From: Craspedostauros australis | Lineage: Eukaryota | Reading direction: 5' to 3' | Assembly (NCBI GenBank): GCA_030167865.1 | Contig: JALAGF010003917.1 | Location: forward strand, 1-61,270 | Length of the DNA: 61,270 bases | Shown here: positions 27,263 to 48,134 of the stretch, piece by piece | Layout of the letters: the number at the start of each line of letters is the position of its first letter | How positions within the stretch are numbered: position 1 is the stretch's first letter | Notes under the pieces: generated by a model | Database searches by the model: none | Told to the model about the DNA's origin: nothing | What the model saw: only the letters and a program-made list of their open reading frames with translations | Translations under genes and position numbers: made by a program

Positions 27263-27980
27263 TCATGCGCCCGAGTTGCACAGATGGAATAGGAACCGGT
27301 TCTGCTGCGTGGCCGATGCCACGAACTCCTCTGCGGTTATTCGCTGCACCTGCTTGCTCAGCACGGTCCCGCTGTTGTTCATGGAACGCGACGGCCGGAT
27401 CATCCACTGAAATCGCAGCGCGTTGAGCCGCTCGATGCGCTCCGGTGTGATGGTGGACTTCTTGCCCTGCAGGAACAGCCGGTACTGCCGCCGCTGACCC
27501 TTCACCCAGATGCCCAGCGACGGGTTCGGCTGGTACACCGTCGGCACGTTCGTGTGCCCCGTCTCCTGGTGAAACACCAGCAGATCCGCCAGGCGGTTCT
27601 CCCACGCATCTTCGTGCGTGTCCCACACGAAACCCAGCCGCGTCAGCTTGTCCTGCCGTTCGTCAGTCAGCGTGGAATGCCGACCTTCCACCTTCTGCTT
27701 GTACTGGTACCTCTGGCGCTTCACCCAATGCGACAGCGCCTTCGAGTCCTTCGGTTCCACCAGGCAATGCCGATGGCGTGAATGGAACTGCACCAGCTGC
27801 TCGTACCGCTTGCCCCACTGGTCGGATTGGTACTTGCGGAATTTGATCGACGGAGCAGCTGTGGAGGATGCCGAAGCTGACAGCCGCGTTGCGGGCATGT
27901 GATCGTCGCCGAGCCATGCCGCGTTATTGGGAAAGTCCAGCTCGTCGGCATTTGCTACAGGAATGGTTTCTACGCACGCC

Positions 27981-28023
<43 letters not shown>

Positions 28024-29374
28024 TGATGTTGTTGGCAATGGTGCAGGCATTGATGAGTTCTTGCGTTCCGAGGATGGAGTGAATCAGGTTGTAATCGGGG
28101 GAGTTCATGGTTCCATCACGTTGGAGCTGCTGGGCCGTCGGTTGTGCGATCGGCTGGTGCTGATGTGCCTGTTGGCGATGCTGCGACTGCTGCCGCAGCT
28201 GCTCCTCCTGCTGATCAGATTGCTTCTGTGATGTTTGGAATTTCGGCAGTCCGTCTTGTGGCGGGTATTGATTTTGGTTCGCCTGAGGAATCTGACTGAA
28301 ATGCTCCTCGAACGCTCCAGAGCGAAGCACATCATGCAAGTTGTATGGTTTGGAGAGAATGGAGTCCATCGTGCTGTCCATGCCCTTCACGTTCCATGAT
28401 TTGGTCTGTTTGTGGCATCGCTGTAGCTCGAAGCTCTGCGCTGCTTCCTTCACTGTCATTCGGAGCGGAAAACACTCGTTTACGTCGGCGATAGCGTTGG
28501 CACTGGTATTGATATTGGTTGTTGCATTGGCGCCATTTCCGTTTCCCTTGTTGCTGATATTGTTGTTACAGTTGCGGTTGCTGCTGCTGGTGGCTGAGGC
28601 TGTGGCGGTGGTGGTGGTGGCGCTGGCGTCTATGGCCATGGCTGTGCCTGCATCTGCGCCCATGTTGGAGTGTGTGGTCCGACCATCGCAGTTGCGTTGG
28701 AATCTCCCGTTGTCCAGGGTATTGGCATTGCCAAGTGTGCGACTGTCGGAACTTCTCATCGATGATGCCATTGCCATCGAAAGGATGGACGTCCCGACCG
28801 TGTGTGTGGTCGACAATGGCGTCGGCATTGCTGCTGCCTTCGCTTCCATCAAGAGATGTGCGTGCCTGGCCTTCGGGTCCTCGTCGTGGGGATTTGGAAA
28901 GAGTGTGTGGAGGAAGTTTTCCATTTCGTCAGTTGCACCGAGCTTGTCGAAGGTTTCCGCCGGGTTGACTTTGTTGACAACAAAGATGGAGCTGCTTTGA
29001 ATTGGCGACGGCTCGAGGGCATTGTGATTGTGATTGAGGCTGTCATTGCAGTTGCGGCAGTGGTTGCGGCTGGTGTGATCCTTGGCACTCGCAGGATCTC
29101 TGGGAAAATTGCCTTGTGTGCTGTCGCTTGCCTCGAACAAGAGTTTCCCGTTCGCGTGCGGGTTCATGTTCATCATGTCGAGATTGCCGATGTCGTCGAT
29201 GGCAACAATGTCGCTAAAATCGTCGTCTCCGCCATCAGTGAAATCGTCCATGAGCACCCGGTCAAGTAAGGGGGACCATTCCATTGGGAGACGAGAGCCG
29301 CTGTCATCCCTGAGTGAATCGAAGGCGACGTTGGCTCCTGTGCCAAGGGGTTGGCCTGTGGCCATGCCTTTCAT
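27263..29374 (-). CDS. Protein with two C-terminal HA (helicase-associated) domains and a long low-complexity N-terminus; putative nucleic-acid binder
   Basis: QWGKRYEQLVQFHSRHRHCLV...LSHWVKRQRYQY...LTDERQDKLTRLGFVW and WENRLADLLVFHQETGHTNVP...LGIWVKGQRRQY...ITPERIERLNALRFQW. First in-frame ATG at 29374. Confidence 0.88.
27983..28024. repeat. (GTTGCC)n coding microsatellite, about 7 copies, encoding (GN)n
   Basis: Read directly; lies inside the 2-HA gene. Confidence 0.9.
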
Positions 29375-32300
29375 CTTCGTCTCCAACGTGTGTTTCGGCC
29401 TTCAGAATTGTTCCGTTGTTCTTTCTTTTCTTCCGAAGCTGTGTGCCCTTGGTGACCGTGCTACCACCTGTGCCGCTGTTCCGTTGGCTCTTCCTCCGTG
29501 TTGCCGATGATCAACCGCAGGGTTGCGATGGGCAGGGAGATGGATCGGCGGAGGGATGGGGCGATGGAGCGATGAATGTGTGGATGAATGGGCGAATAGT
29601 GTCGCTATGTCCGTGGATACCAGGGACGTGGGAGAACAGTGAACGGAGGTGGTGGACTTTGTGGGCAGAAGTGGCGGTAGCAGTAGGAGTAGCGCCAGCG
29701 TAAGCGCTTGGGGCTCTCGTGTGGTCGTCGTCTTCGATGTCCTTGTCGGTGGTGTTGCAAATTTGTGAGGTGAATGTGTTGGGCACTTAGCCACAAAGAG
29801 TTTCGCCTGCTGGAGACGGGATTGTCCTTGGGCATTTGCTGCTGGCTGTTTGAGCTGTACATGGCATTCCTCCGACAACCATACATATCAAAGCGTGTCT
29901 GATGTGACACGATTCATAAATGGGAGGAAAGAAGTTACTCCTAAAAACAGGATTGTCACAGACGTGCCCAGTGCCTCGATCGACAAGACAGAACAATAGT
30001 TGAGAAAGAGAAGGCAACGAAGCAAAGAACAGAGACAAGGGATGACAGGCGAACTGCATTCAACCTGGAGAATCCCACACACAAACACACGAAGTTCACA
30101 GAAATCCCTTCGTCCTCAACGTGTCGGAGGAATGACCACGCGGTGGGCCGGAGCCTCTCCTGCCTTCGTCACTCTGTCGGTTATCTGTTTTTGTTGTGCT
30201 GTGGGGAGTCCACTCTGCCGTACACTTATCCTTGCAGCTTCTGTTTGTTTTCATTTATTGTCCCGTGATGAGGCGAACATTCTTTTTGTTTCTTTTGTTC
30301 CCTTTCTGCTGTAAGAAATGTTGTTGAATGGTTGTTGCCATTCCTATCCCGGTCACTTGGGGAGACGACGCACTTCAAATGCTCCTCTTTGTGTTGTCTT
30401 CGTCATCATGGTTCTTCTGGTTGCAGTTGCGACTGTTGTTTGTCCTCATGCCATCGCCTTTCATGTGGTGTTGGCCAGTTGCGCGAGAGGCTGATTGAGC
30501 TCCTCGCCTCGCCACTACTGTGCATTCTGGGTATAGCAGAGTTAAGCTCTCTTGTAGCGCAACCGCCTTTTGTCCGTTTCTCATGCTGGATGATGCTGGG
30601 GATCTTCGGCGCTACAAATTGCACCAGCACATTGTGGGTACGGGTGTACAAGAGGAAACAAGAGTACGAGTGACGCACTCGAAAACAAGGGTCATGTTGG
30701 CCTTATCCATACATAGTAGTCGTATGTGTTGAAAACTTCTGCAAGGGAGGTATTCTATAATATAATAATAGATTGGATGATCACTGGCGATGTCAAGCGA
30801 CGCGCCAACGCTTCCATCCCACGTTAGATCTCGATGCAGATCAGTCCGGCAAAGCAAAATAGACACGAGAGGTAAGTATGTTCGATGCTTGATCCGCTTT
30901 GCTGCTGCGTCTCAAGACCGACATACGTACGCAATGCTGCGTTAACTCGTCTGGCAACCGCCTACGCCGAAGAAACATGGGATTCGAGGGTAACAATACG
31001 CCTCTTTCTCATCCACAGTTACATGCTAGTACGATGTACAATCGGCTTCGTCCTTGATCCATAGCCCCTCGTCAGAATTTCACGAGCCTGAACTTGATGA
31101 TAACAGGACGCCCCGGACCAGAATATCCGTGCGTCCCATACTCCTACCGCACCTACTCGTATTTGGACAATACATCATTTCGCAGAGAAGACATCCGGTA
31201 CGAGTTTCACCACTCAGGAATTAAGCAGGACACAAGTGCGGATAGCATTGGTACTGGAGTAATAATATTTACGAATACAATAGCAGCCAAAGGCGATGAA
31301 GAAGAACGTGAAGGGAAAGCTGAAGCGATCGGGCTTTGTTCGAAGGCTGAGTGGATGGAATGGAGTGTAGAGCAAATCACGATGAGATGCTCTTGATTCT
31401 TCTGGTTGATCGGAGTTTGTGCCACGCACCACTCGCAAACGAAAAAACACGAAGAGACACCGAAAGCATGACTCATCCAACAAGCGCATGCAGACTGTGT
31501 GCAATCGTGTGCTATGCGAGACTTGCACGTTACCCAAGGAGCACTACTTGGTATTCCGCAGGTGCGGTCCTTCATGGATAGTGGAGGATCAGCTCGGCAC
31601 CTCGGCACCTCATGCACTCTTTGATTGTTGGCGCCTTCGCTGGTGCCGTCGCAGCTTTGTGGAAGTTCTCGAACTTTTGCCTCCCCTGTCCTCCCGCGCT
31701 CTTTCTGACAGAAACCGCAGAGGGACAGAACGTTCGCACAACGACGATTCCGATACGCTCGGGTGGAACACATCGCTCTCCATCTGCTCCAGCTGCGCTT
31801 CGCGATGCGTTCATGAACTTGGATGTACGTGTACTCGTACATACACTGGCTGTGCCAGGACACAAGAAGGCAGCTCGTATACTCGCACATGCAGGCATAC
31901 ATGCATAGGAGGCTGGTTGGTTTCATGCCGAGATCAAACAAGATGTCTTCGCTCCCACACGCGTACGAGAGGTCAGTATGATCCACTTCATCGGAAGTCC
32001 ATGCCGCATCCTCCTCCACATCATCATCATGATAGCGCTCTTTGCTTCTCGGCGACAGGCACGACTAGTTTCAGTACACAAAGCACCAACGGCCAGCGCC
32101 AGCGCCTCTCCCTCTCTCTGGGGTCGCGTTCCACACTTGGTGTTGGGTAGAGGCACAGAATTCCACAATGTGGCAAGCATCGAAATGGTGCAGCCGTTCA
32201 AAGAACAGTGAGGGATCTCGAGTTTGTACACGAACACATTTGCGCTCTCATGTCGGTGGAAACGGTCGGAATAACTCACTTGTCTGTCCATTTCATTGCC

Positions 32301-33103
32301 GAATTGACATGTTTGATTGGTAGCGACGTGGAACATGATGAATGGCAAGGACATTCTCAAAACATCACCATCGTTCAAGCGGCAATGGCAATACCGCGAC
32401 TTGGCCTTCGTGCAACCAACAGTGTGTGGATGTTTGCAACAGTCGCGGGAATGTTCGGTACTAGCGAACATCACGCATTCTCTGTTCCTTCGTGGCGTTC
32501 GCCATCGTTCTTTGGGTTCGAGACGTGAACAAAAACGGACGATGAACAGACAATGAGAACTACAAAGAAGCGCCAACAACCACCCATCGTGATGTAAATT
32601 CGGGATCTCCGAGTTTGAGTTTGGTGATGTTGTGTCACTTCACGTGAGCAGGCAAAGAGCGAGAGAGATCTCCTTTCCTGTGATGTTGATGGGCAAGGAG
32701 ACGGAATAGGCAACAGGAACACCAGCCAGAGCAGCGGACAAACAAGAGCACACGTCAGATAGTAGACACACCCACGAGTAGTCGTACGAGTAGTACTCTG
32801 GTGGACCAGACGCGGAACGTCCAGACAGCAAGCAGCGGCACCAAGTGGCATCAATCGCATCTTCATTCGCATCTTCGAGCGGATCTTCGAGCGGATCTTC
32901 CAGTGCAGTTTCCAGCACACCTTTCGGTCCAACTTCACGTGTATCCAAGATCGCATCCAAGGTCGAGAGGCAAGGCCGAGAGGCAAGGAACGTGATAGCG
33001 TTTGCGTGACAGATCAAACACCGACGTACGCGGAGACAGAGTCACAGCGAACAAGAGGATCCCAGAGGGACAGAGAGGGATAGAAAGCCAGCGATCCATC
33101 ATC

Positions 33104-35155
33104 ATGGGAAAGTTCGCAGGCGGAAAGAAGGGTGGCTCTCGTGGCTCATCCTTCCAGAGCACCTCCAAGCACTCATCGCCGTACGCGCCTGCTGCCAACG
33201 TGCTCAACGAGATCTGGAGGACGTCCAAGGGGCTGAAGACCGTCACGTTCTCGCAGGACGGCCAGCTCAAGGTCTCCAAATCCACTTACGCGCAGTGCGC
33301 CAACGTTCTGAAGCACAAGTCCGTCCTGGACGAGGTGCTGTCGTCGTCCGCCGGGAACGGCGATGGCGATGGCAATGGCGCGCAGCCTATTGTCGAGGCG
33401 AGGAACGAAGGGTTGCTGTACGTTCTGCTCTACGAGCTGCTTCTGGGTCCCAACAAGGCAATCCGCGGAGGCGGATCTCTGAAGCGCAAGCTGATGCAGA
33501 AGGAGTCCGATCTTCGGGAGGCGCTGGAGCGGGCATCGCCGGCTTCCAATGGAATGCTGGCATCGGCAAAGACGATTCCGCGGTACGTTCGAGTCAATAC
33601 GCTGCGCACCACCACGCAGGCTGTCGTCGAGCAATTGCAGAAGGATCATCCGGATCTGATTCTGTTTGCAGATGCGCACATTCCAGATATGCTCGTGATG
33701 GAACCGTCGGCCAAAACAAGGGAGCTTTTGCAGGATCTGGTGACATCGCACGAGGTCGTGCTGCAGGACAAGAGCTCTTGCTTCTCGGCCTTGTGCATGG
33801 TACATGGCTTCGATGGCGATTCTGCCGACAAACATCTATCGCAGGTTGCCGCAGCAAACAAAGATGGGACTGTGAACTTCATCGATGCTTGCGCAGCACC
33901 TGGAAACAAGACCAGCCACCTGGCGGCGCTGTTGGACAAAGCGATCGCCAGCAACGGCAGCAATGCCAGCAACGGCAGCAATGCCAGCAATGGCAGCAAC
34001 GACAGCAATACACAATCGAAGAAGTCGTCACCATTCAAGAAGAGCAAGAAGAAAAGCAAGACGAGCAGACAACAGCAATCGGTGGCCGCGACTGTGCATG
34101 CCTTCGATCGATCCTCGTCTCGATTCGCGATGCTGTCGAGGCGGATGTCCGAACTGGTGCCATCGCAAGACTCATCGTCCCGTCCTGTCACCGTGCAGTG
34201 CCACGAAGCCGACTTTCTGGCATCTCCAATCTCAGCCGCCACGAAACAGCAGGCTGACGGCAGCCCCGACGAAATCTACGGCATCCTCCTCGATCCAAGC
34301 TGCTCCGGCAGCGGCATGGCGGCGCATCAGCACAACGCCAGCCACGATCCGACCTACACGGATGAACGTGTCCAGAGTCTGTCGAGGTTCCAATTCAAGG
34401 CATTGCAGCATGCCATGAGCATACCGTCGGTGCAGCGGATCGTGTATTCGACATGCTCGCTATATGTTGCGGAGAATGAGCAGGTGGTGTGCGACGCTTT
34501 GTACGGAGGTCAAACCGATGACGACGATGGCAACGATGTCAACCATAGCGATGATAGCGATAGAAGCAACAGCAGCAAATCGACCGAATGGCAGCTGGTG
34601 GCACCAAAGTGCTTGCAGCATTGGAAACGCCGTGGATTGTCATCCTTCGAGTCCAAGCATTCCCAACAGCTGAGCGAGAGCGATCTCAATGCGCTGATCC
34701 GTGTCAATCCTATCGAGGATGAAACCAATGGATTCTTCGTGGCATGCTTCGAACGCAAGTCGGCCTCCATGAAGCAGCAGCAGCAGCGGCGGCAAGTGGA
34801 ATGGAACGTGGAGGCCCTGGATGGTGTTGCCGTGTACAACAGCGAGTTCGTGCAGGACCCATTGCCACCGAAGAAAGAGAGCAACAAGAAGGCTACAGTG
34901 GCAACCAACACCAAGGCACAGGCACAGGCAAAGACTGCGTCGCCATCGCCAAGACAGAAGCAACATCAGAAGCAACACCAACACGATGGAGATACTTCCA
35001 ACGAGAAGGAAACGCCTACCAAACGAAAACGAGATGCGCCCAACAATGACAAGGTCATGTCCAAGAAACGCGCCAAGAAGCTGGAGTGGAAGAAGCGCCA
35101 GGCGGAGCAGAAACAGAAGCGACTATTGCAGAAGAAGAGCAAGGCGTCGGAATAA
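33104..35155 (+). CDS. NSUN5: Large-subunit rRNA cytosine-C5 methyltransferase, NSUN5/Rcm1 type
   Basis: Motifs IPRYVRVNTL, LQDKSSCFSA, IDACAAPGNKTSHLAA, ILLDPSCSGSG, IVYSTCS...ENEQVV and GFFVACFER, with both catalytic cysteines present. N-terminal VLLYELLLG and a Lys-rich tail. Confidence 0.9.
   Translation: MGKFAGGKKGGSRGSSFQSTSKHSSPYAPAANVLNEIWRTSKGLKTVTFSQDGQLKVSKSTYAQCANVLKHKSVLDEVLSSSAGNGDGDGNGAQPIVEARNEGLLYVLLYELLLGPNKAIRGGGSLKRKLMQKESDLREALERASPASNGMLASAKTIPRYVRVNTLRTTTQAVVEQLQKDHPDLILFADAHIPDMLVMEPSAKTRELLQDLVTSHEVVLQDKSSCFSALCMVHGFDGDSADKHLSQVAAANKDGTVNFIDACAAPGNKTSHLAALLDKAIASNGSNASNGSNASNGSNDSNTQSKKSSPFKKSKKKSKTSRQQQSVAATVHAFDRSSSRFAMLSRRMSELVPSQDSSSRPVTVQCHEADFLASPISAATKQQADGSPDEIYGILLDPSCSGSGMAAHQHNASHDPTYTDERVQSLSRFQFKALQHAMSIPSVQRIVYSTCSLYVAENEQVVCDALYGGQTDDDDGNDVNHSDDSDRSNSSKSTEWQLVAPKCLQHWKRRGLSSFESKHSQQLSESDLNALIRVNPIEDETNGFFVACFERKSASMKQQQQRRQVEWNVEALDGVAVYNSEFVQDPLPPKKESNKKATVATNTKAQAQAKTASPSPRQKQHQKQHQHDGDTSNEKETPTKRKRDAPNNDKVMSKKRAKKLEWKKRQAEQKQKRLLQKKSKASE
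33950..34003. repeat. 18-bp coding tandem repeat x3 (SNGSNA)
   Basis: agcaacggcagcaatgcc x2 plus one variant copy, inside NSUN5. Confidence 0.9.
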
Positions 35156-35271
35156 TGTTGCCACGAACATAGTAGTTGGAATCCAGTGGTAACGAGATTA
35201 ATCAGCCATTCTATTTCGTACCTGCACATCACAACAACAACTACAGAAGCAGCAACTGCCACCGCTGATAT

Positions 35272-37522
35272 TTACTTGAAATCCGCGCGCACCACGTTCT
35301 CCACATCTTCCCGGATGATGAGCTGCGGATCGAAGTCGATATCGTCGGCCATCTGAGCCGAACGCATGCGCTTGCGGACCTCCGTACGGCATCCGGTGAG
35401 GAGCATCTCGCTGATACGGCCATTGCGCTCGCTGCGCCACGACGGCGTCGTCTCATCCTCCATGAGACGCGCGATGAGCATGGGTGTGAGGTCGTCCGTG
35501 AGGTCGAAGCCCTTGGCGTTGGCGAGGTCGATGAAGATCTTGGAGAGCTCGAGGCAGGTGTAGTCGGGAAATTCGAAGTTGACCGGGAACCGTTTGCGCA
35601 GCTCGCCGTTGAAGACGAGGAAGGTCTGGATCTCGACGGGGAATCCCGCCAGGATGACGAGGGGGTGGTTGTCCTCGCCGTTCTTGGAGGCCGACTCGTC
35701 GATGCTGCGGATGATTTCCATGATGGCGTCCGTGCCTGTGTCGACGCGATTTCTCTTGGAGGCCATGCCAAGGGTGTAGGCCTCGTCGATGAAGAGGATG
35801 CCGCCGCGCGCCTCGTCAATGACCTCGCGCGTCTTCATGATGGTGGTCTGCTTATCTCTGGCCACCAGATCCATGCGCTCGACCTCGAGGAACTTTGGTT
35901 TCCGGAGCAGTCCGAGCTCGTGGTAGACCTTGGCGAGGAGGCGCGCCACCGCGGTCTTTCCAGAACCAGGGTTGCCGACGAAGACCATGTGATCGGCCTT
36001 GGGACGGCCGTTGTCCTCTGCCAGCGCCGGTGGGATGATGTTGAGCGGGTGGCTGCGACCGCGCGGTCCTGTCGGGGGGACGAGAGACTCCTTGAGGTCG
36101 CTGATCTCCGCCGTTCGGCGCAGTCCACGCACCTGCGACTTGATGTGATCGAGGCTGATGATGGAGGATAGGAGGTCCTCGACGCGATCCTTGGGCCCCG
36201 TCTGCATGCGGTCGTAGGAAGTGGCCATCGGTATGCCTCTGGAGTCTCTGGTGACGAGACGCGTGCGCTTCCGGATGGCGTCCATGAGGATGTTCTCGGC
36301 ATCCACCTGTCCCTTGCCACGGCCATCCTCGAGCTGGTCGGAGAAGGCGATCTCGAGCTCGTTGGGGTCCATGCCGGCCGAGTAGAGGGCGTGCGGGAAA
36401 CGATCCGCGAGCTTGCGCACGGCCGCGAGGGCCAGCTTGAGGTCCTTGTTCTTGGCACCTCCCGAGTTGCGCATGCCGCCCAATCTGCGCTCCAGGGCGT
36501 TGGCCTGCTCGTCGAACCTCTCCGCTTTCTGACGGCGCGTGAGCTCCGGCGGTGGCGGACGTCCCTCGAGCATGGCGACGACCTGCTCGTTTGGGTTTTC
36601 GCTGGCGACGATGAGGTCCAGCGGCGTCATGCCTTCATCGTTCTGGAGGTGGAGGGCATCTGGGTAGGCCTCGATGAGGAGGCGCACGACCTCTGGCTCC
36701 GCGCGCTTGGCGGCCGCCATGTGGAGGGGCAGGGATCCGTACTGGTTGCGCACGGTGGCACCTTCGGGATGGCGTCCCAGCAGGACCTCGACGGTCTCGA
36801 TGGGTGCCTCCCACATGGCCGCCTGATGGATGGGGAGGTTGCCCACTCCGTTTGGTTGCGATGCGCCGCCTGGGTATGCCTTCAGCAACGCCTCGATGAC
36901 ATCCGCGCTGGCCTGGAAACTGCAAGCCGCATGCAGCGGCAGGTTGCCTCGCTCATTGAGGCGTGAAGCTTCTTCCGGGAACGATGGTTGCTGTGATGCC
37001 AATGCCAATGTCAGTGTTCGAGTTGATATAGATAATGTCGTCGTTGTCGTCGTCGTCGTTGGTGGTGGTGTTAAGGATGATGGTGATGGTGAGGTTTGAG
37101 AATTGAAGACGGAAGTATTATATCACACGAAGAGTTGAAAATGTGAGGCCAGATGGGACGAAATGGAGAATGCGAATCGAGCACTCCATTGATACTTGCG
37201 AAGAATGACAACACTGCGCTCCGCCGTCCTCTCGAATGTGGTAGGTGGTAGAGTAGCATTAGTGCCGTGCCCTTCCTTCAGCATGAGAGAGGATCCAGCC
37301 ATCCATGCATCCATCCATGCATCCGTACTCATGGCATGGCCGAGCATATGCACCATAAAAGCACCGCACCCTGCAATTGCACCCGCAGCTGCATCCAGAG
37401 ATGATGCCAAAGATGATGATTGTAGATGATGATAATCTAGCAGTGTTGTTTTGACGTACCTTGCTGCGAGAGAGCAAGGCTCCGAATCCCTTGCAGAGAT
37501 CGTGAAGCTGCGTGTCGGACAT
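35272..37522 (-). CDS. Ankyrin-like repeat + CbxX/CfxQ/SpoVK-type AAA+ ATPase, paralogue A (catalytically intact), about 593 aa. Exons 37522-37460 and 36990-35272
   Basis: Four GxLPLH/TPLD ankyrin-like repeats; Walker A HMVFVGNPGSGKT, Walker B GGILFIDEAY, sensor 1 region VILAG, Arg finger LRKRF, FEFPDY and RNGR. Exon 1 (MSDTQLHDLCKGFGALLSRSK|GTACGT) splices in phase 0 to cacag|CAA and aligns without gaps to paralogue B. Confidence 0.9.
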
Positions 37523-38661
37523 GGTGACTGTCTTGTGCAGGGAACGTTTTGGTGCTGATAGCTGCTGTACTCAATGCTCGTGCAGCGTCGGCTCTCCAAT
37601 GTGGTTGGTTACAGTGGTCACAGTGGTTGCAGTCGATGCCTGGAGGGTCAACAAGGCTGCTTCGTCTTGCTGCCTTCTTGGCTTGTTAGCTTGTCAGGTT
37701 CTTGGCTTGTTGGTTTGCTTCTGTTGAAGGACAAGGTGGGATCAGTCTGGGATCAGTCTGGGAGCTGTTCCGAATAGAACGCGCAAGCCACAAAGGAAGG
37801 AGTTGACAATGATGATGCTCAACTCAACTGTACGGCAATACTCTGCCTGTTGAATCTCTCTTCGCTCCACCTTGCTCCACCCGCCAAGACAGACAACCAA
37901 GGGCAACGACCACAACAGAGACAGCAACAACCGAAGACCATGGCGAACGCGCCTGTCCCAACAAGACACCACAACACGCCGCGCCAAAAAAAGCCAACTC
38001 GTTGCAACTCGCACGATCCAGCGCGACAACGGGGAACTGCGCTGTTCGTCACGCATCTTCGGCCAGGAGGATCCGTTGAGTGGCGAAATCCTTCGATTTT
38101 TCGATTATTTGACTACTCAGACTCGGATTGATTAAGCGAGGCACATGCAACATAACGGTTCTGCAACCTGAATCGACAAAATAAATGGACTCAACAGAAG
38201 ACACGAGGTCACGAAAACAGGCGCAGACACAACCGCGGGCGTTACCGAAGAGGCAAGGGAGGAAAGAAACAAACAAACAAGCCAGCCAACCAAGCAACAA
38301 CAACGACCGCATCTTGTGCACGCTCCGAAGTTGCGCCATCGTTGGTGTCATCGCCATTGTCGTCGCTGCTGTCGGCATCTTTCAAGTCGCAAGATCAAGC
38401 ACCGCAACGGCAACGACAATAGAGCACCAACTCAACGGCAACAGATTGAAGCAAAGCAAAGTCATCTTGCTGACACTCCGCACACCATCTTGATCATCAC
38501 GAATCCGGGGCGAACATCGGACGAAGCCAAACGAAGTCGGAAGCAGATACTGTCGCATACCGCACGATACTGCACTACTATACGCTGCACGAATATCGCA
38601 CAGTCCGCACTGTATAGCACCAAGAGCACAGCAAGAAAAGGAAAGAAAGAAGAGGATGACA

Positions 38662-40838
38662 ATGGCAGCATCCGGAGAGTACACCGATCTGCATGAGGTC
38701 GCCAAAGGATGGAAGGCGGCCATTGCGAGGTCCACAGACCCAGCCACCAGGTATGTAAGATTCATTCCAATGATTGCTCAGCATGTCATACAATGCAATA
38801 TAATGCAATGCAATGGAATGAAGCAAGAAAGCAAGCAAGAATGGCGCCATGCAGGACACACGTCTCCTATCACTCATACGATAGCCTTGCATCCCGTCTC
38901 CCACCTCACCTGACCTTACTTGCTCTACCTTCTCCCCAACCTCATCAACACAACTTCCACTATCGCATACACCAATACACATCCATTGCAATCACTGCGA
39001 TCGCCGCAATCACGGTAATCACTCGACCTGTGTCCATTGGTGCACGACTACTTGCATGAACGCAACAATACCATCATGCGACACAATCATGCACTATCAC
39101 GAATCATACATCACATCATGTATCTTGTATTATATCGTATTGTATTACATCGTATCGTATTTATATATATGTATGTATGTATCATGCATGACACGGCAGG
39201 CATGAGGCACAGGTAAAGAACGACCGTGGAAACCTGCCATTGCACACGGCAGCATCCTTCCGCGCACCCCTCGAGGTCACGGAAGCGCTGCTGGAGGCAT
39301 ACCCGGAGGCTGCATCCATCACCAACAACTACGGAAACCTGGCGCTGCACTTCACTGCGTGGAAGAAGGGACCGCTCGATGTGGAGAAGCTGCTGCTCAA
39401 GGTCTTCCCAGAAGGAGCGGCGCAGAAAAACAACCACGGCAATCTGCCGCTGCACTACGCCGCGCACTACAACGCCCCCCTCGAAGTCGTCGAAGCGCTC
39501 TACAATGCTTACCCGGAAGGCGCCACGCAGAAGAACAACGACAACAACACCCCGCTCGATCTGGCCATCGCCGACGGCGCCTCCCCCAACGTCGTGGCCC
39601 TGCTGCAGGGCAAGTCCGTCCCACCCACCGACGACGAGATCCTGGCGGCCTCCCAGCGACGCTTCGAAGCGCTCGAGAAGGAGATGAAGAAGTACAACCA
39701 GCGCAATCAGGGCACCAGCGAGGAGATGGAGACCGTCCTCTCCGTCCTCATGGACATCAACGAGGGCCACCGTCACGCCCTCTACTCGGCCGGCATCATC
39801 CCGGAGAAGGCCACGGGCATCGAATCCATGCTGGATCAGGTGCGCAAGGCCGCTGCGGCCGACGTGGCTCCCTCCGTCATGGGCGAGGACACCTTCATGG
39901 GCCGCAACGACAACGAGGATGAGGCGCAGCTCATCGAGGACGCCCTCTGTCCGCCGGATGACGTCGTGGAGATCGCCCTCTCCAAGCTCGTCGGTCTCGA
40001 GTCGGTCAAGAACCAGGTGCGCGGGCTGCGACGCACCATCGAAATGAACGACCGCGACAAGCCGACGGTCCGCATCCCGCCCAACCACCTCGCGCTGCAG
40101 GGCAATCCGGGCACGGGCAAGACCACCGTCGCCAAGATCCTCTCGCAGGTCCTCTTCGAGATCGGCGCCGTCAAGAACCGAAACTTCGTCATCTGCGGGC
40201 GTGACGACCTCATCGATCGCAAGTCCGAGGTCCGCACCATCCAGAAGACGCGACGTGTCCTGGAGCGTGCCTCGGGAGGCGTCCTCATCCTCAAGGAGGC
40301 CTACACCCTCCTGCCATCCACGGCGCGTCCCAGGGGGAGAGACCACGGTGGCGCGGCACTGCGGGAGATCGCGCGCATCCTGCCCTCCGGTAACCCACTC
40401 GTCGTCCTTACAGGATCGCCGCTGGACCTGCAGCGGATCCTCTCCAGCGACATTGGCTTCAAGAACTTCTTCCTCACGCGCGTCGAATTCCCCGATCCCT
40501 CACCGGAACAGGTCGCGCGCATGTTCATGGGCAAGATGACGGAGAAGGGTTTGATCGCCGGCGACGGCGTCACGGTCGAGTACCTCGCGGAGCTCATCGC
40601 CACCAACACGGATGAAGACTGGCGGTTGGAGCGCAACGGCCGCGTCAGCGAGCTCCTCGTCTACGCCGTGCGGTCCGAATTGCGCCGCCGCATCAACTTT
40701 GACGATCAGGCCTCCAAGATGTCCGTCAGCCCCATCAAGCTCATGAGCGGGGGATCGGCGCGTATGCCGGCCTTTGCACCGGAGGAGGTCTTTGTCACCG
40801 TGGAAGATATCCAGAATGCCGTCGTCAACGGTCTTTAA
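38662..40838 (+). CDS. Ankyrin-like repeat + CbxX/CfxQ-type AAA+ protein, paralogue B (degenerate Walker B and Arg finger), about 575 aa. Exons 38662-38750 and 39200-40838
   Basis: Same architecture as A. Walker A GNPGTGKT is intact, Walker B reads GGVLILKEAY, and the Arg-finger region reads DIGFKNFF. Phase-2 intron AG|GTATGT...ggcag|G restores TRHEAQVKNDRGNLPLH. An alternative ATG lies at 38656. Confidence 0.9.
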
Positions 40839-41233
40839 CATTCCAACCAACGCAATCTCTGTTCGTATTGTAGGTAACTCGCTCAATCAAACAATCTCAC
40901 ATAGCCAATACTATCACATTGCAATGATCATGTTTGTTATTGTTGCTGTTTGGTGGCTTGGACTTGGAATCATGGCAGAGCGTTTGTGTGTCTGCCTCAA
41001 TGAGTTCATCTCCTCATGACCGAGAGGATCTTCATTGTGGTGTGTAGTGACGCACAAGGTCTACCAGAAGCTCTCTCCTCATTCCTCTCTAGCCCATGCA
41101 GAATAGATAATAATGATACAATCTCTATCGTTACATCTCCTCACCTTGCTTGCCAAGAAGAGCATGCCACTTTCACGCTAACGCTACTTCTAACGTCAAC
41201 ACCAACACCTCCAGACACTGGAAAAGACACCTC

Positions 41234-42733
41234 TCATGACAACTCTCCCTCGCCAGCTTCCGTCCTCCCTTCCAACACATTCTTCGTGGCCCGGAATATG
41301 GCAAAGGACAGCCCCGTCCCGATCATGTTCTTGAGCACGGCCGGAACGATCCCGCGATAGAAGGACGCGACGCCTTCGCGTTTGTAGATGGCGCGCGCGC
41401 AATCGACCATACCGACGTGAGGATGGGACGCGCTGCTGTGCAACGTGCTGGTGCCGAAGACTGCCTGGGCCTGCAACCGCTTCTTGACCGTGTCCATGGG
41501 ATAGACGACGATCTTGCTCGTGGCGCCGGCGATCGAACCCGCGTAACCCGACACGGAGACGGTCTTGTTATGATCCTGCCGCGTGAGGTACTCGTAGATG
41601 GAGAAGTTGAGACCCATGTAGGGGACGATCTGCAGCACGGCGGGCAGGCCACCTGCGTAGAAACCGCGCACGCCTTGGTTGCGGTAGATGTCGGCAGCGA
41701 ATCCCGCGATGGAGGTTGGCGGGCGTTGCAAGTGTGGTCTGGTCGCTTTTGGTGTTGCGGCGGGTATCGTGTCCGCAAGGCCTCTTGCCGCGAACGCGGT
41801 CCTGCACAGATCGAATGGATACGTGATGAGCGTCGCACAGGTTCCCGCCACAGCGCCCGATAGAAATGCGACCACCGTCTTTCGCTGTCCCAGATTGTGG
41901 ATTTCATTCTTTCCATCTTTACTGCTTGTGGTCGCATTTTCGGGTATGATGGCGGCCGTGATGATCTGCTGCAACCTGCCGTAGACTGCGAACTGGACCA
42001 TGGCGTATCCCGCCCAAAGGTAGGTGGCTGCGAGGTTGCCGCGGAACAGAGCGAAGATGCTGCCCTCCTTCTGCACGATCTCCTTGAGCTGTGACCAAAG
42101 CGAGAATGAAGATCGTAGCGGATACTCAACCGACGATGCTGTGCCGCCGATGCCCGAGCTAGCCGTTGGGGCGGATAGCTGCATCCTTATTCTGATCAAA
42201 TCCAATGGGGCCGTCGCCAATCGCGCTGTTGTTTGTGACATGTTCATCACCATCATGTTCCCCAGCATCGTTGGTGTTAAGATAGGTAGACAGTTATATG
42301 GATAGATAGTTAGATAGATAGAGACGGAGGAATTGTGTTGTCTTGCATTGCATTGCATGCATTGCAGCAAGAGCATGTGAGTTCCATGTACTCTGGAGAG
42401 AGCAGGGCACTTCATCCGAGCGGATGGGATGAATGACTCTGGCAACCAAGTGGAGCATGACAGAGCACAGTAGTGTCGAGCAACTCCGTTCATGCATTGC
42501 ATATAGCATGACAAGAGCTCCAGCAATGCACTTTGCTCCAAGAGCAACAGACGCGATATGAGTCTCCGTTGTAGCGCGCGCAGATGACACACACATCATA
42601 GACCTCTATGGAGCAGCGTGATTCGTAATATGGTATGATATGATATAACACCATACGAGCACATACCTCCAGCTCCCGCTGTGCCGCCTGCAAGTGCGTT
42701 GTGCCACCATGGATAATCGTCTTCGTTGGGCAT
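41234..42733 (-). CDS. Mitochondrial carrier family protein, probably a thiamine-pyrophosphate carrier (SLC25A19/Tpc1-like), about 352 aa. Exons 42733-42667 and 42225-41234
   Basis: Three Px[DE]xx[KR]x[KR]-type signatures (PLDLIRIR, degenerate PFDLCRTA, PMDTVKKR). FRGN...Y..VQF..Y, IVPYMGLNF and GSIAGATSK..YP resemble TPC carriers. A phase-1 intron joins LAGGTAGAG-A-RLATAP. Confidence 0.8.
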
Positions 42734-43719: not shown

Positions 43720-45114
43720 TCAGTAGGGACCCACGGACATCTTCTTGCGTTCCCTTCGATTCTTGCCGCCACCTCTTCGACCCACCACGGCGCTGCTCCT
43801 CCGAATTGACGACTGCAGTGGCACCGCGACGGTTCGGCTCGATTGCGGCAGGACGAGATTCCATTCGCATATCCGGGCGTCCTCCCCCGCCGTGACAAAG
43901 ACGCTGGGCGACACGAATGACCAGTCGCGCAGGATGCCGCGATGACCGCTGCGCAGGACGTTCTGTATCGCGATGCCGTGATCGTCGATCTTGAAGAGCT
44001 GCGTGTCGCCGCAGGAGCTGCCGCCGAGCAGGAACAGCTCCTGCTGCAGCACGTCCCAATGGCAGTTGACGAGGTAGTCGACGCGATCGCTTTCGGCGGC
44101 GCCAATCATGGCGGGCACATCCATCATGCCGCGATCGATGCCGGGTGTTTGGGTGGCCTGCGTGGTCAGGTGCGTCAGATGCTGGCGCAGGCCCGGGCCA
44201 AAGTCCTTCTGGCAGATGCTGTTGTCCATCTGCCACAGCTTGAGCGTCTCGCATCCCGTGAGCGTGTAGATGGCCGACGATTGCGGACCGAAGAAGCCGA
44301 GACGACGGATGGACGATTGAGTCGTGAGGACGTTCTGCAGCGCGGCCTCTTCCGTCGGATGCTTCGTGTCGAAGACGTTGACGAGACCGTCCTCCCCGCC
44401 GGATGCAAACACCGACGTCGTCGTCGTGGTCGTCCCGAAGGACGCCATCGTCTGGAACTCCACCTGCGTCACTTCATCCGTGTGCGCGTGCTGGTACGTT
44501 CCCAGCAACCCAGACGTGCCGCGGATGTCAAAGAAGTGCACGCGTGATTTGCTGCTGCCGACTGCGGCGATGGCGCCCTCAAATCCCAACGAAACGGACA
44601 GCGCAGCCTCACCAGCAAGCGGGAGCTTGAGTTGCATCTTGGGAGCAGATTCGCGGATGTCGTAGAGCGCGACGGTGCCATCGTTGGAGGCCGTGACGAG
44701 CACGTGAGGATTGGTGGTGGTGGGATCGCCCGTGAGTTCGTTGACGAAGCCGTGACTGCTGCCTCCTCCCTTGGTGACGATCTTCTGCTTGACATGCAGC
44801 CTCTCCTGATCGTAGATGTGAACCTCCCCGTTGCTGATTGCGCAGCCGATCCAGCCGTGCATCGCCTTCAAACTGAGGACCCAGTCGCCTTGATCATAGT
44901 AGTTGCAGTTCTCCTCCGCTCCATCTCCTGCATCTCCTCCATCCACTCCATCTCCTCCATCCACTCCATCTCCCATGCTGCTCTCCGAGGACGTCGTTGA
45001 CGCATTCGTCAAGGTGGATGCTGAGGCGTTGAAGCGCGAGGCCTTGACCTTCGGATTGAAGCTCGTGACAATCGTCCGGCTCGGTGTGATCTTTCCCTTG
45101 CTCAACATCGTCAT
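43720..45114 (-). CDS. WDR89: WD40-repeat protein, WDR89-like
   Basis: WD-like repeats ending in YD, FD and WN, plus family-like segments HTDEVTQVEF, SGGEDGLVNVFD...EEAAL and DYLVNC. Confidence 0.7.
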   Translation of the reverse strand: MTMLSKGKITPSRTIVTSFNPKVKASRFNASASTLTNASTTSSESSMGDGVDGGDGVDGGDAGDGAEENCNYYDQGDWVLSLKAMHGWIGCAISNGEVHIYDQERLHVKQKIVTKGGGSSHGFVNELTGDPTTTNPHVLVTASNDGTVALYDIRESAPKMQLKLPLAGEAALSVSLGFEGAIAAVGSSKSRVHFFDIRGTSGLLGTYQHAHTDEVTQVEFQTMASFGTTTTTTSVFASGGEDGLVNVFDTKHPTEEAALQNVLTTQSSIRRLGFFGPQSSAIYTLTGCETLKLWQMDNSICQKDFGPGLRQHLTHLTTQATQTPGIDRGMMDVPAMIGAAESDRVDYLVNCHWDVLQQELFLLGGSSCGDTQLFKIDDHGIAIQNVLRSGHRGILRDWSFVSPSVFVTAGEDARICEWNLVLPQSSRTVAVPLQSSIRRSSAVVGRRGGGKNRRERKKMSVGPY

Positions 45115-46621
45115 ACTTCCTCCTTCCTTCCTTTCTTCCTTCCTTCCTTCCTTTCTTTCCTCGTTCGTCAGCAAACAACGATGCACAAGAACTCGACTGA
45201 TACGCCCAACTCAATTCAACCCTTTTCGATGCAATGCAATCCAGTCCAATCCAATACAATGCAACACGACACAGCAGAATACAAGATGGAATACAAGAGA
45301 AGGAACGCAATGCAACGCAACGCAATTCAATTCAATTCAATTCAATGCAATGACAGGAGATGACACGAGATGGAGCGTCAAGAGGCGGTACTTGTTCCAC
45401 AGAAGAGCAATCCAATTCACCAACGAACACAATCAGCACGCGAAACACGTGCACAAACGAGTTGGTCGCGTTGGCGCGGCAATTTCAAATTCACTCTGTT
45501 GGCTGGTGGGACAGAGTGAGTCATGCATAACGGGCCAATGGGAAGCTTGTCCGTATCCTCTGTTTTGGTCTGGACTGCGTGCGGTATTCCATTTTTTGGC
45601 GACGTGTTTGAACGAAGGCGAAGTTGGGGCAAACTATCTCATGGAGTGCAGAGTCAAGACACAATCTCAGATTCCGTTGTTTGGCATCGATAGATCGCAG
45701 GGACGGAAGATGATGCGACGTTGCAGCTTGCAGATGTCCTTGGTGAATGCTTTGACAGAGGCATCGCTCTGTCTTTGGCGGAAGGCATCTTCCATAGAAG
45801 TTGGTCCAATGGCATTGCGATGCTGAATGAAACAGGATTCATAGTTCCGGCTTATATACTGCACGTATTCGACGAGAAAGTGACTCTGCGTCTACACCTG
45901 GAACGCTGATCCCAAGAGCATGATGCTCTGAACTCCATCCTCTGGCTCTATTCTACTCGAAGATGATTTGGTTTGTACAGGAATGAGGTTTACGCTGTTA
46001 TAAATGTGTTTACGGATTTGCGTTTGCATGTCACATTACATGCAGACCCTCATTCTGCGAGAAGTAAGTCAATGAGTTCACTTGGAAGAAAGTTCTGTGA
46101 ACCTCGAATGAGTCTTTCCCAAGGTTGCGGTGTTGTTGGCATAAATGCATGGTTGCGAATGTGTGGATGAAAGCACGTTTCTACTCGTGCTTGTGCATCT
46201 GTGCACATTCTCAGCCACTGTTGCACCTGCTGCGACGAGCATGCGAAGTCGTTGCGTGCCTGCCAGGTGTGTCGCGGAAGTTGTGGTTGAATGTTGGTTT
46301 GCCGGATGGTATCGTTGCTCTTCGGAACGCTGGTACTTGAATGCGCCGTATCATGTCACAATGCAGTTCATTGCATGACATAACGAACGCGGTCGCCCAT
46401 CTCTCCAAGTGACTTCCTCCTCAACAGGAAAGGAAGGGAATGCGAGATAGAGAGCAGAACACCATCCTGTGCTTCTTCGTGATGCTTCGCGCGCAAACTC
46501 ATCAGTGCGGACCGTGCGTCATCGCCGCCATCCAGCTGGATGGGTTGTGATCCAGTCAAGAAATATGAGGGAAAGCTACACGGCCACGCTGTGATGCGCA
46601 CAAGACACTGCGACAGCGAAC

Positions 46622-48134
46622 TTAGCTGAGGCCTGGGAAGTTGTCGGTGATGATGTTGTGGTTGTATGGTCCCATGTAGTCACCGGCGTATGCTGGGATG
46701 ATTCCCTTCAAGGCTGGGACGGCACCCTCGGCCTTGGACTCGGAGAGGAATCCGAAGATGCCGAGCATGGCAAGGCGTCCGTTGTTGATCTCCTTGACGA
46801 GACCGGAGGCCTTGGCTTCCTCGGAGCGGTTCTTCGACCAGCCGAATGGGTCGTAGAGGTTGAGGGCGCCTCCTGGGATGTAGTTGGCATCGAAGGCTGG
46901 GAACTCACCTGGCTTTCCACCGGCCATGTAGTGCTTGTCCGACTTCAGCTCACGCCACTGTATTCGCGTTCGTGAGAATATACGTTGCGATTGAACATGA
47001 CCCCGTAAGCACAGAATACAGTGTCACCATCCACCCAGTTCAACACGAAGGAGAAAGAGCCAATTGTGAATCCCAATGCGTTACATCCCGAGTTGAACGA
47101 GTGACGCAATTGTGGTTGCAACAAGGTGTAGCGTAGTGTATGGTGTTGATTTGCATTGGTGCCCATTGATTTCCAACAGAGCAGTTTGGAACAGTTGAAT
47201 CGAATATGAGGATTGAATTTGATGTGTGAGATGGGAGATGCGTAATGCATGGCAGGTGCTGCAACAAGGGATTCACTCCGATGAAATCAACGTCAAACGC
47301 CAAACGCCGGATGACTGATCAATTTGAACCAGCCAAAGTACAGCAAACCAAACCACAGGTCGAGCAAACCAAACCCGATAGGATGCACTTACGACCTCGA
47401 GGAAACCGATGAAGGTGATGATCTGGTACTTGGCAGCGTCAGAGATGGAGTCCCAGGCCTCTGGCGCGCTGCTGACGGTTGGGAATGGAGTTCCGTCCAT
47501 CTGCATGGCCCATGGGAAGGTGATTCCGTTGGCGTGCACGATGTATCCAACGAAGGCTGCCATGGCAATGCGTCCATGCTGTGAAGGTCAGAAATAAAGC
47601 GTGTAGATCATGTCGGGATGGGATGGGCACGATTGGTTACGGTGGGTGAGCAGAGCAACGGATGAAGTGAGAGTTTGTGCTGCGATATACTACAACGCAA
47701 TGCACTTGTGGCAGATGCAGTAATTCACGATACAACCAATGATCATGGCTGGCAAATCCCCTCATCTCCACACAAATGAAGCAATGACTAAATACGTGAA
47801 AATGACCACAACCGATAACCCGACAGATGACACGACATGAAGCAGCAGCAATAGAAGCAACTGGAGTAGAGCGGAGGAGGTCCGATACAAACGAACGCAC
47901 CTTGATCTCAGACTCGCGAAGGAATCCGATGGTGGCCTCGCTGCTGGTACCCCAGAAGTTCTGCTCCGCAAGTCCGAGCGGATCGAAGAAGCCGAGGATC
48001 GGGTTGCACTTCTTGGCGAGGACGGCGAGGTCCTCCGCGGTCTCCTGGACGGCGACGGAGGTGCGGGCCTGCTTGGCGGCTGGTGCGAACGCAGCGGCGG
48101 AGGCGACGAGGGAGGCGAGAACGGCGGTCTTCAT
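46622..48134 (-). CDS. Light-harvesting complex (fucoxanthin-chlorophyll a/c binding) protein, possibly Lhcq-type, about 251 aa. Exons 48134-47901, 47578-47393, 46957-46622
   Basis: Signal peptide plus AAAFAP motif; FFDPLGL; helix 1 RESEIK|HGRIAM restored across intron 1; LEV|WRE...HYMAGGKPG; YDPFG; helix 3 EINNGRLAMLGIFG. The subfamily call is from memory only. Confidence 0.93.

What the first reader, a model, noticed from the sequence alone, without database searches (positions are those of the whole stretch)
40275..40495. Paralogue B has lost both the Walker B Asp (ILFIDE to VLILKE) and the Arg finger (LRKRF to FKNFF) but keeps Walker A
Seen: the Walker B Asp position is AAG (40293-40295). 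This needs two base changes from an Asp codon, so it is unlikely to be a sequencing error. The aligned Arg-finger position is Phe, while GNPGTGKT and the C-terminal RNGR are intact. Known: the Walker B Asp coordinates Mg2+, and the Arg finger activates the neighbouring subunit in trans. Inference: B can neither hydrolyse ATP nor activate its neighbour, so a strictly alternating A/B ring would be inactive. B is more likely an inhibitor, ring cap or nucleotide-sensing adaptor. The Lys might replace Mg2+, as in some pseudo-enzymes.
Basis: partly seen in the sequence, partly recalled or inferred. Interest (0 to 1): 0.7.

Follow-up and report, generated by a model that had tools for sequence, protein, structure and literature searches.

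The report
Degenerate partner of diatom ATPase pair
Diatoms keep two sister ankyrin-repeat ATPase genes side by side, and this one is the conserved partner that has lost its activating arginine in nearly all copies and its own catalytic site in many pennate diatoms, which suggests a two-part switch or scaffold with an unknown target.

Summary
B (38662-40838, +) has Lys at the Walker B Asp and Phe at the CbbX R194 Arg-finger position; Walker A and sensor 2 are intact.

Finger loss is family-wide: Arg in 9 of 120 B homologues, against 427 of 446 clade domains. Asp loss is not fixed: 80 of 120 keep Asp, 2 have Lys, and Asn is one base from Lys, so 'Lys replaces Mg2+' fails. B is not decaying (omega 0.06-0.07).

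A and B lie head-to-head on 22 of 22 metagenome contigs with enough flank. Centric-type B keeps an intact site; pennate-type B has eroded. A's own site is invariant, and A's finger drifts only in the pennate-type clade (13 changes against 0), though loosely pair by pair. Neither family has the pore-loop aromatic.

Best reading: a cytosolic 1:1 A/B heteromer in which A's finger served B's site, now a nucleotide-gated scaffold with conserved ankyrin arms. Binding is untested because the complex predictor was unavailable. The scan noted this pair before on another genome (e1-7504207).

The parts
38662..38750 (+). Gene B exon 1 (start of first ankyrin-like repeat; an in-frame ATG also lies at 38656; no targeting peptide seen by eye)
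   Evidence: GT-AG junction chosen to match P0003 N-terminus
38751..39199 (+). Gene B intron (inferred)
   Evidence: One of three candidate junctions; the only one matching P0003; no RNA confirmation
39200..40838 (+). Gene B exon 2: ankyrin repeats, helical linker, CbbX/SpoVK-clade AAA+ domain
39240..39605 (+). B ankyrin repeats, the most conserved part (83 of 122 columns at least 95% fixed)
   Evidence: Pfam Ank_5 E 3.8e-16; conservation
39606..39947 (+). B helical linker (two long helices plus bundle), shared with A, found only in the A/B family
   Evidence: AlphaFold2 helices 131-236; linker profile matched only A/B-type proteins among 148
40101..40124 (+). B Walker A, GNPGTGKT (intact here; Lys in 114 of 120 homologues)
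40215..40235 (+). B pore-loop-1 region, no aromatic residue (aromatic in 1 of 120 homologues)
40281..40298 (+). B Walker B, VLILKE; Asp replaced by Lys at 40293-40295; Glu kept
40407..40421 (+). B sensor-1 region; clade GY signature lost (GS)
40458..40481 (+). B Arg-finger box: Phe at the finger (40467-40469), always-basic Lys at -2 (40461-40463), conserved Arg at +4 (40479-40481)
40632..40643 (+). B sensor-2 region, RNGR (last Arg in 73 of 120 homologues)
37523..38661 (.). 1.14 kb spacer between the divergent start codons; candidate shared promoter (inferred)
   Evidence: head-to-head arrangement conserved
37460..37522 (-). Gene A exon 1 (inferred intron 36991-37459)
   Evidence: Junction matches P0123 N-terminus
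35272..36990 (-). Gene A exon 2: same architecture as B, 34% identical; Walker A 35953-35976, Walker B 35782-35799, Arg finger 35590-35592, sensor 2 35416-35427, no pore-loop aromatic (35845-35862)

Best explanation
A and B are the two subunits of one diatom-specific, probably cytosolic, ankyrin-AAA+ heteromer (1:1; heterodimer or alternating ring) made from a head-to-head gene pair. AAA+ sites are composite: Walker A/B from one subunit, Arg finger from the neighbour. The ancestral state, kept in centric-type diatoms, is one-way activation: A's finger completes B's intact site, while B gives no canonical finger to A's invariant Mg-ATP site. In pennate-type diatoms, including this genome, B's site has eroded (Asp, Walker A Thr, sensor-1 Tyr) to at most a nucleotide-binding pocket, and A's finger has begun to drift. 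Lys is one of at least seven tolerated replacements. With no pore-loop aromatic in either subunit, the complex is not a threading motor. It most likely acts as a nucleotide-gated scaffold or switch whose near-invariant ankyrin arms hold a conserved partner protein. Shown: residue states, selection, linkage, paralogy, clade-level coupling. Inferred: binding, stoichiometry, location, loss of hydrolysis, switch function. Unknown: the target.
For: (1) Head-to-head on 22 of 22 contigs with at least 1.8 kb upstream of B (about 17 distinct; 37 of 59 too short to tell). Window flanks match none of the flanks of the 16 loci compared. Adjacent gene tags in Cylindrotheca and Mayamaea. (2) A+B form one clade apart from CbbX (SH-aLRT 100, quick tree); one copy each in this genome. 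(3) A site invariant: K, D, E 120 of 120. (4) B site intact in 64 centric-type rows (K 64, T/S 64, D 64, E 63, Y 61) but D in only 16 of 57 pennate-type rows; 16 against 0 changes. (5) A finger Arg in 26 of 26 centric-type rows against 85 of 115 pennate-type rows; 13 against 0 changes, P about 0.011 if changes follow branch length. (6) omega 0.055 for A and 0.063 for B; 0.074 without Asp and 0.056 with Asp. (7) Pore-loop aromatic in 0 of 120 A and 1 of 120 B; the CbbX Tyr there is needed for activase function (PMC5437159). (8) Ankyrin domains are the most conserved parts.
Against: There is no direct evidence that A and B bind. Coupling is loose pair by pair: of 8 distinct pairs where B lacks Asp, A's finger is still Arg in 6 (including this genome) and Cys in 2; one pair (Mayamaea) keeps Asp in B yet has Lys in A. 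The clade contrast is a single phylogenetic comparison on FastTree trees with some duplicate rows. The model leaves A's invariant site without a finger. B keeps the Walker B Glu even in copies with no Walker A Lys, so Glu conservation says little about catalysis in either paralogue. Linkage shows co-regulation at most.
Confidence: 0.52

Rival explanations
1. Cap or inhibitor: A forms a self-activating chain or ring, and B joins at one end, accepting A's finger but giving none, so ending or damping the oligomer.
For: B's finger is lost in every lineage sampled. A's site is invariant and needs a finger from somewhere. A's finger stays Arg in 93 of 120 and in 6 of 8 pairs with Asp-less B. Terminal clamp-loader subunits (RFC1, delta) lack a finger (recalled, no call).
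Against: A's finger is C, N, S, H or Q in 11 of 120 and K in 16 while A's Walker motifs never change; an A-A catalytic interface should hold the finger as tightly. The drift appears only in the clade where B's site erodes.
Confidence: 0.2
2. Substitute finger: B completes A's site with another basic residue (Lys at -2 or Arg at +4), so the heteromer is an active ATPase with half its sites working, like red-algal CmN/CmP.
For: The -2 position is K/R in 120 of 120 B and R in 120 of 120 A, against 177 of 446 in clade relatives. +4 is Arg in 105 of 120 B. PMC11513918 places the 'first arginine finger' four residues after a conserved Asn, which read literally is the -2 position (SI figure not seen). 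A half-dead CbbX ring is functional.
Against: A's -2 Arg stays invariant where B's site is dead, which suits a structural role. B has Lys there in 114 of 120. Both genuine CbbX proteins of this genome have Ser or Met at -2 but keep the R194-equivalent Arg.
Confidence: 0.17
3. A and B are co-regulated but act separately, each as a monomeric or homo-oligomeric ankyrin adaptor.
For: Ankyrin surfaces differ between A and B and each is strongly conserved. No fused A-B form was seen among 39 longer hits (weak evidence).
Against: It does not explain why A's finger relaxes in the clade where B's site erodes.
Confidence: 0.08
4. The Lys is a specific adaptation replacing Mg2+, or else B is a decaying pseudogene.
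For: Lys is shared with a 93%-identical relative and recurs once elsewhere in the tree, with one Arg.
Against: Seven different residues occupy the site in 40 of 120 homologues, Asn being commonest. omega is 0.05-0.08 in measurable pairs. The frame is open and orthologues occur in transcriptomes.
Confidence: 0.03

Closest known systems
CbbX red-type Rubisco activase, especially the C. merolae CmN/CmP alternating heterohexamer
   Same: Closest solved structure by sequence (E about 1e-22) and fold (Foldseek E 4.6e-12). Two paralogues with unequal ATPase roles: CmP E138Q stays functional, CmN E138Q is inactive (PMC5437159 passages and Table 1).
   Different: Far below the TIGR02880 cut-off (84.5 and 108 against 459 bits). 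No pore-loop Tyr, no H198. N-terminal ankyrin repeats and a helical linker. Both genes nuclear. The genome has separate plastid-type and nuclear CbbX genes.
SpoVK / EccA / CbbX higher-order AAA+ clade (PMC11513918)
   Same: Best NCBIfam hits are SpoVK, CbbX and EccA. Variable N-terminal substrate-recruiting domain. GY sensor-1 signature in centric-type B; sensor-2 Arg present.
   Different: The passages read describe narrow-target chaperones with intact sites and contain no mention of ankyrin. Here A has GF, pennate-type B has lost the Tyr, and B lacks the finger.
Torsin with LAP1
   Same: One-way activation: an AAA+-fold partner supplies the Arg finger to an ATPase (PMC4358337, abstract). Analogous to A's finger acting on centric-type B.
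   Different: LAP1 lacks nucleotide-binding motifs, whereas donor A keeps an invariant site. Different clade and compartment; analogy only.
Skd3/CLPB and plant ankyrin-AAA proteins
   Same: Ankyrin plus single AAA+ architecture (Foldseek E 3e-7; Atlas clusters: Streptophyta 0.96, Skd3-like 0.89).
   Different: Skd3 matches at 12-13% identity with rmsd about 30 A, so architecture only. The plant cluster was not fetched, so its relationship is untested.

Membership tests
SpoVK/CbbX/EccA AAA+ clade | AAA+ domain best matching clade profiles and structures | tested here: met
SpoVK/CbbX/EccA AAA+ clade | GY signature in sensor 1 | tested here: inconclusive
   Tyr in 61 of 120 B homologues (centric-type); Ser in this B; Phe in A
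SpoVK/CbbX/EccA AAA+ clade | Sensor-2 arginine present | tested here: met
   This A and B have it; 116 of 120 A and 73 of 120 B
CbbX (red-type Rubisco activase) | Score above TIGR02880 cut-off and grouping with CbbX | tested here: not met
CbbX (red-type Rubisco activase) | Pore-loop-1 Tyr (Y114) and His sensor (H198) | tested here: not met
   Aromatic in 0 of 120 A and 1 of 120 B; H198 column mostly Arg in B and Thr/Val in A
CbbX (red-type Rubisco activase) | Plastid location and Rubisco activation | not testable with these tools
   N-termini run straight into the ankyrin-like repeat (by eye; no predictor run)
Active AAA+ ATPase subunit (this B) | Walker A Lys-Thr | tested here: met
Active AAA+ ATPase subunit (this B) | Walker B Asp-Glu and trans Arg finger | tested here: not met
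Pseudo-ATPase subunit of a heteromeric AAA+ complex | Catalytic residues lost under purifying selection | tested here: met
Pseudo-ATPase subunit of a heteromeric AAA+ complex | Physical association with the partner | not tested
Pseudo-ATPase subunit of a heteromeric AAA+ complex | No measurable ATP hydrolysis | not testable with these tools
   Needs an assay

The most novel reading that the evidence does not exclude
A conserved diatom-only AAA+ heteromer changed mechanism within diatoms. Centric types run a one-way machine (A's finger fires B's site), while many pennate types, including this one, have no complete composite site and use the complex as a non-hydrolysing ATP/ADP sensor that positions two ankyrin arms on an unknown partner. 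This would be a living series from half-active ATPase to wholly pseudo-enzymatic AAA+ switch, with the two halves of one composite site relaxing together across two genes.
Probability: 0.25. Interest if true: 0.72.

Novelty: new variant of a known kind. Interest (0 to 1): 0.5.

Why it matters
Heteromeric AAA+ complexes with dead or half-dead subunits are known, so the residue loss alone is ordinary. What is unusual is an apparently undescribed pair kept head-to-head from Corethron-level lineages to raphid pennates while its flanking genes change, with near-invariant ankyrin arms and a graded loss of catalysis. That points to a conserved diatom process with an unknown target. It is directly testable because Phaeodactylum tricornutum and Thalassiosira pseudonana carry orthologues. 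It also offers natural variants for asking how AAA+ pseudo-enzymes arise.

Tried and rejected

RNA evidence: no RNA holder listed. The one run laid covers only 35100-35782 and 40462-40908, without differences, misses the Lys codon and may be DNA or the source sample; not used.

Prokaryotic source: the GTDB scan gave 38 loci, all matching only the ankyrin part. The 11 phage records matched the AAA domain at under 60% identity. The profile search of 1.84 billion representatives was dominated by multi-AAA or multi-ankyrin proteins; among the 148 new ids only 6 carried the linker, all A/B-type. No fused form among 39 longer hits (weak).

No functional clue from conserved neighbours. The pair-by-pair finger/site coupling test was loose. 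The sensor-2 column printed for A matched the wrong motif and was ignored; one search has the right one. dS is saturated in 9 of 18 pairwise comparisons, so omega is approximate. The careful tree did not finish; one search is the quick tree.

Literature: searches gave 0 papers. Searches listed none on this pair, judged from titles and abstract starts. Subscription journals are not covered. Supplements not read that may bear on claims: SI Fig. S3 of PMC11513918 (which residue is the 'first' finger) and Suppl. Fig. 1/Table 1 of PMC8119650 (SpoVK-annotated branches beside CbbX may include these proteins).

Rejected readings: sequencing error, pseudogene, fixed KE, Rubisco activase.

Full report
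Setting. The window is from a eukaryotic genome of 65.9 Mb; the closest relatives of both genes are diatom proteins. Two divergent genes, A (35272-37522, minus) and B (38662-40838, plus), each have one inferred intron whose junction matches a transcriptome orthologue. Each encodes ankyrin repeats, a helical linker and an AAA+ domain. They are 34% identical. Their best profiles are SpoVK, CbbX and EccA, all far below cut-off, and the nearest solved sequence and fold is CbbX. The genome search gave 4 matches: B, A, a plastid-type CbbX and a nuclear CbbX.

The observation. B has AAG (Lys) at 40293-40295 in place of the Walker B Asp and TTC (Phe) at 40467-40469, with Walker A and RNGR intact. The Phe aligns with CbbX R194, named as the arginine finger in PMC4580454 (passages). 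In 446 AAA domains from multi-AAA relatives this column is Arg in 427 and the Walker B Asp is kept in 433, so both changes are real departures. One caveat: PMC11513918 puts the 'first arginine finger' four residues after a conserved Asn (passages; SI not seen), which read literally is two residues earlier. That column is variable in the clade (K/R 177 of 446) and is Ser or Met in this genome's CbbX proteins, so I follow R194. P0003, 93% identical, shares the Lys, so it is not an error.

Are the changes fixed? I examined the best 120 of 485 hits for B and the best 120 of 722 for A. In B the finger column is H 53, N 39, R 9, Y 5, S 5, F 3, K 3, Q 2, G 1: the loss is family-wide, and the Arg copies sit among K, Q, G and N neighbours in the tree. 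The Walker B Asp column is D 80, N 28, S 5, K 2, P 2, Q 1, T 1, R 1. Lys is therefore rare, and 8 of 11 other non-Asp codons in the fetched loci are AAC/AAT, one step from Lys. The Mg-substitute idea is not supported. B is not decaying: omega is 0.063 for B and 0.055 for A on the AAA domains of 15 paired loci, and 0.074 for 11 Asp-less B copies against 0.056 for 11 centric-type copies. These are approximate because dS is often saturated.

A lineage pattern. On the B tree, 64 rows including Ditylum, Attheya, Chaetoceros, Skeletonema, T. pseudonana and Discostella clusters ('centric-type'; names) keep Walker A Lys 64, Thr/Ser 64, Asp 64, Glu 63 and sensor-1 Tyr 61. The 57 rows including Seminavis, Mayamaea, Fistulifera, Epithemia, Nitzschia, Cylindrotheca and the window ('pennate-type') have Asp in 16 and Tyr in none, with 16 against 0 changes at the Asp. 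Most rows carry no name, so the labels rest on the named ones. A's Walker Lys, Asp and Glu are invariant (120 of 120), but its finger is R 93, K 16, C 5, N 2, S 2, H 1, Q 1. With locus sequences added, the finger is Arg in 26 of 26 centric-type rows and 85 of 115 pennate-type rows, 13 changes against 0, P about 0.011 if changes follow branch length (some rows are duplicates). This is what a composite site made of B's Walker motifs and A's finger would show. Against it, the match is loose pair by pair: A's finger is Arg in 6 and Cys in 2 of 8 distinct pairs with Asp-less B, including Arg in this genome, and Lys in one pair where B keeps Asp (some pairs matched only by dataset name or contig length).

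Linkage and origin. Of 59 metagenome loci, 22 have at least 1.8 kb upstream of B, and all 22 carry A on the opposite strand there (about 17 distinct); 37 are too short. In the 16 loci measured the aligned starts are 0.6-1.8 kb apart, and flanking genes are shared only between a few loci, never with the window. Cylindrotheca and Mayamaea gene tags agree. A and B form one long-branched clade apart from CbbX (SH-aLRT 100, quick tree), with a Corethron A and a deep-branching B. No protein with the full architecture was seen outside diatom-type sequences; these searches are not exhaustive, and a plant ankyrin-AAA cluster seen in the Atlas was not compared.

What it cannot be doing. The pore-loop-1 span has an aromatic residue in 0 of 120 A and 1 of 120 B. 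CbbX needs that Tyr for activase function (PMC5437159), so threading is unlikely in either subunit. The ankyrin domains are the most conserved parts: 83 of 122 columns at least 95% fixed in B against 57 of 248 in its AAA domain; 75 of 129 against 122 of 282 in A.

Mechanism. I favour a 1:1 A/B heteromer (0.52). Ancestrally A's finger completed B's site while A's own site bound Mg-ATP without a canonical finger. In pennate types B's site decayed to a binding pocket or less, leaving a nucleotide-gated scaffold that presents ankyrin arms to a conserved partner. Residue states, selection, linkage and clade-level coupling are shown; binding, location, activity and target are inferred or unknown. 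Rivals: B caps or damps an A oligomer (0.20); B's always-basic -2 Lys or +4 Arg acts as a substitute finger (0.17); separate functions (0.08); Lys adaptation or decay (0.03). The complex predictor was not available, so these were not separated structurally.

Known systems and novelty. It works like CmN/CmP (unequal paralogues; PMC5437159, passages and Table 1) and Torsin/LAP1 (one-way finger donation; PMC4358337, abstract only). Rvb1/Rvb2 also have unequal fingers (10.1101/2024.05.13.593962, abstract only). The clamp-loader comparison is recalled. It is a member of the SpoVK/CbbX/EccA clade by sequence and fold, but is not CbbX. PMC8119650 (passages) sets SpoVK-annotated branches aside without describing them. 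Searches found no paper on the pair. The scan noted the same pair on another genome (e1-7504207); my reading was recorded before I saw it, and it is not independent support. Added here are the Asp not being fixed, the centric/pennate split, the coupled drift of A's finger and the missing pore loops.

Verdict. Observation confirmed; interpretation partly supported; new variant of a known kind; interest 0.5.

Noticed in passing
P0044, P0052, P0062, L010: One pennate-type B subclade has lost the Walker A Lys outright (Met in its place) together with the Asp and the sensor-2 segment, yet keeps the Walker B acidic second residue: the end point of the decay series.
   Followed up: partly
L049:22-1890: Deepest-branching B in the tree, 40% identical in the AAA domain, with Cys at the finger and Asp-Glu intact; may be the partner of the Corethron-type A (P0271), not shown.
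   Followed up: partly
L003 (G000:C5790) and L004 (G000:C4074): The genome's genuine CbbX genes: one among plastid-like genes, one nuclear, both with pore-loop Tyr and the R194-equivalent Arg.
   Followed up: partly
Atlas clusters: A Streptophyta ankyrin-AAA cluster (score 0.96, 61 members) and two ankyrin-AAA clusters of about 525 aa whose few labelled members include viruses (0.92); relation to the diatom pair untested.
   Followed up: no
P0563: A 960-aa unnamed protein with ankyrin repeats and two intact clade AAA domains; falls outside the A/B clade, so ankyrin fusion may have arisen more than once.
   Followed up: partly
P0039 and P0163 clusters; P0532: Model-diatom orthologues: P. tricornutum A (EEC51467.1, partial); its B inferred from shared contig lengths keeps Walker A and Asp-Glu; T. 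pseudonana B (g2524.t1) has Arg at the finger position.
   Followed up: partly
window 27263-29386 (-), 33002-35155 (+), 41234-42592 (-), 43720-45186 (-), 46622-48134 (-): Neighbouring ORFs look like a helicase-associated-repeat protein, a Sun/NOP2-type RNA methyltransferase, a mitochondrial carrier, a WD40 protein and a light-harvesting protein (labels recalled from motifs, not scanned); none is conserved beside the pair elsewhere.
   Followed up: no
B homologues in the Chaetoceros-containing branch: Sensor-2 Arg replaced, mostly by Tyr (20 of 64 centric-type rows), although Walker A and B are intact, so some centric-type B sites may also be impaired.
   Followed up: no
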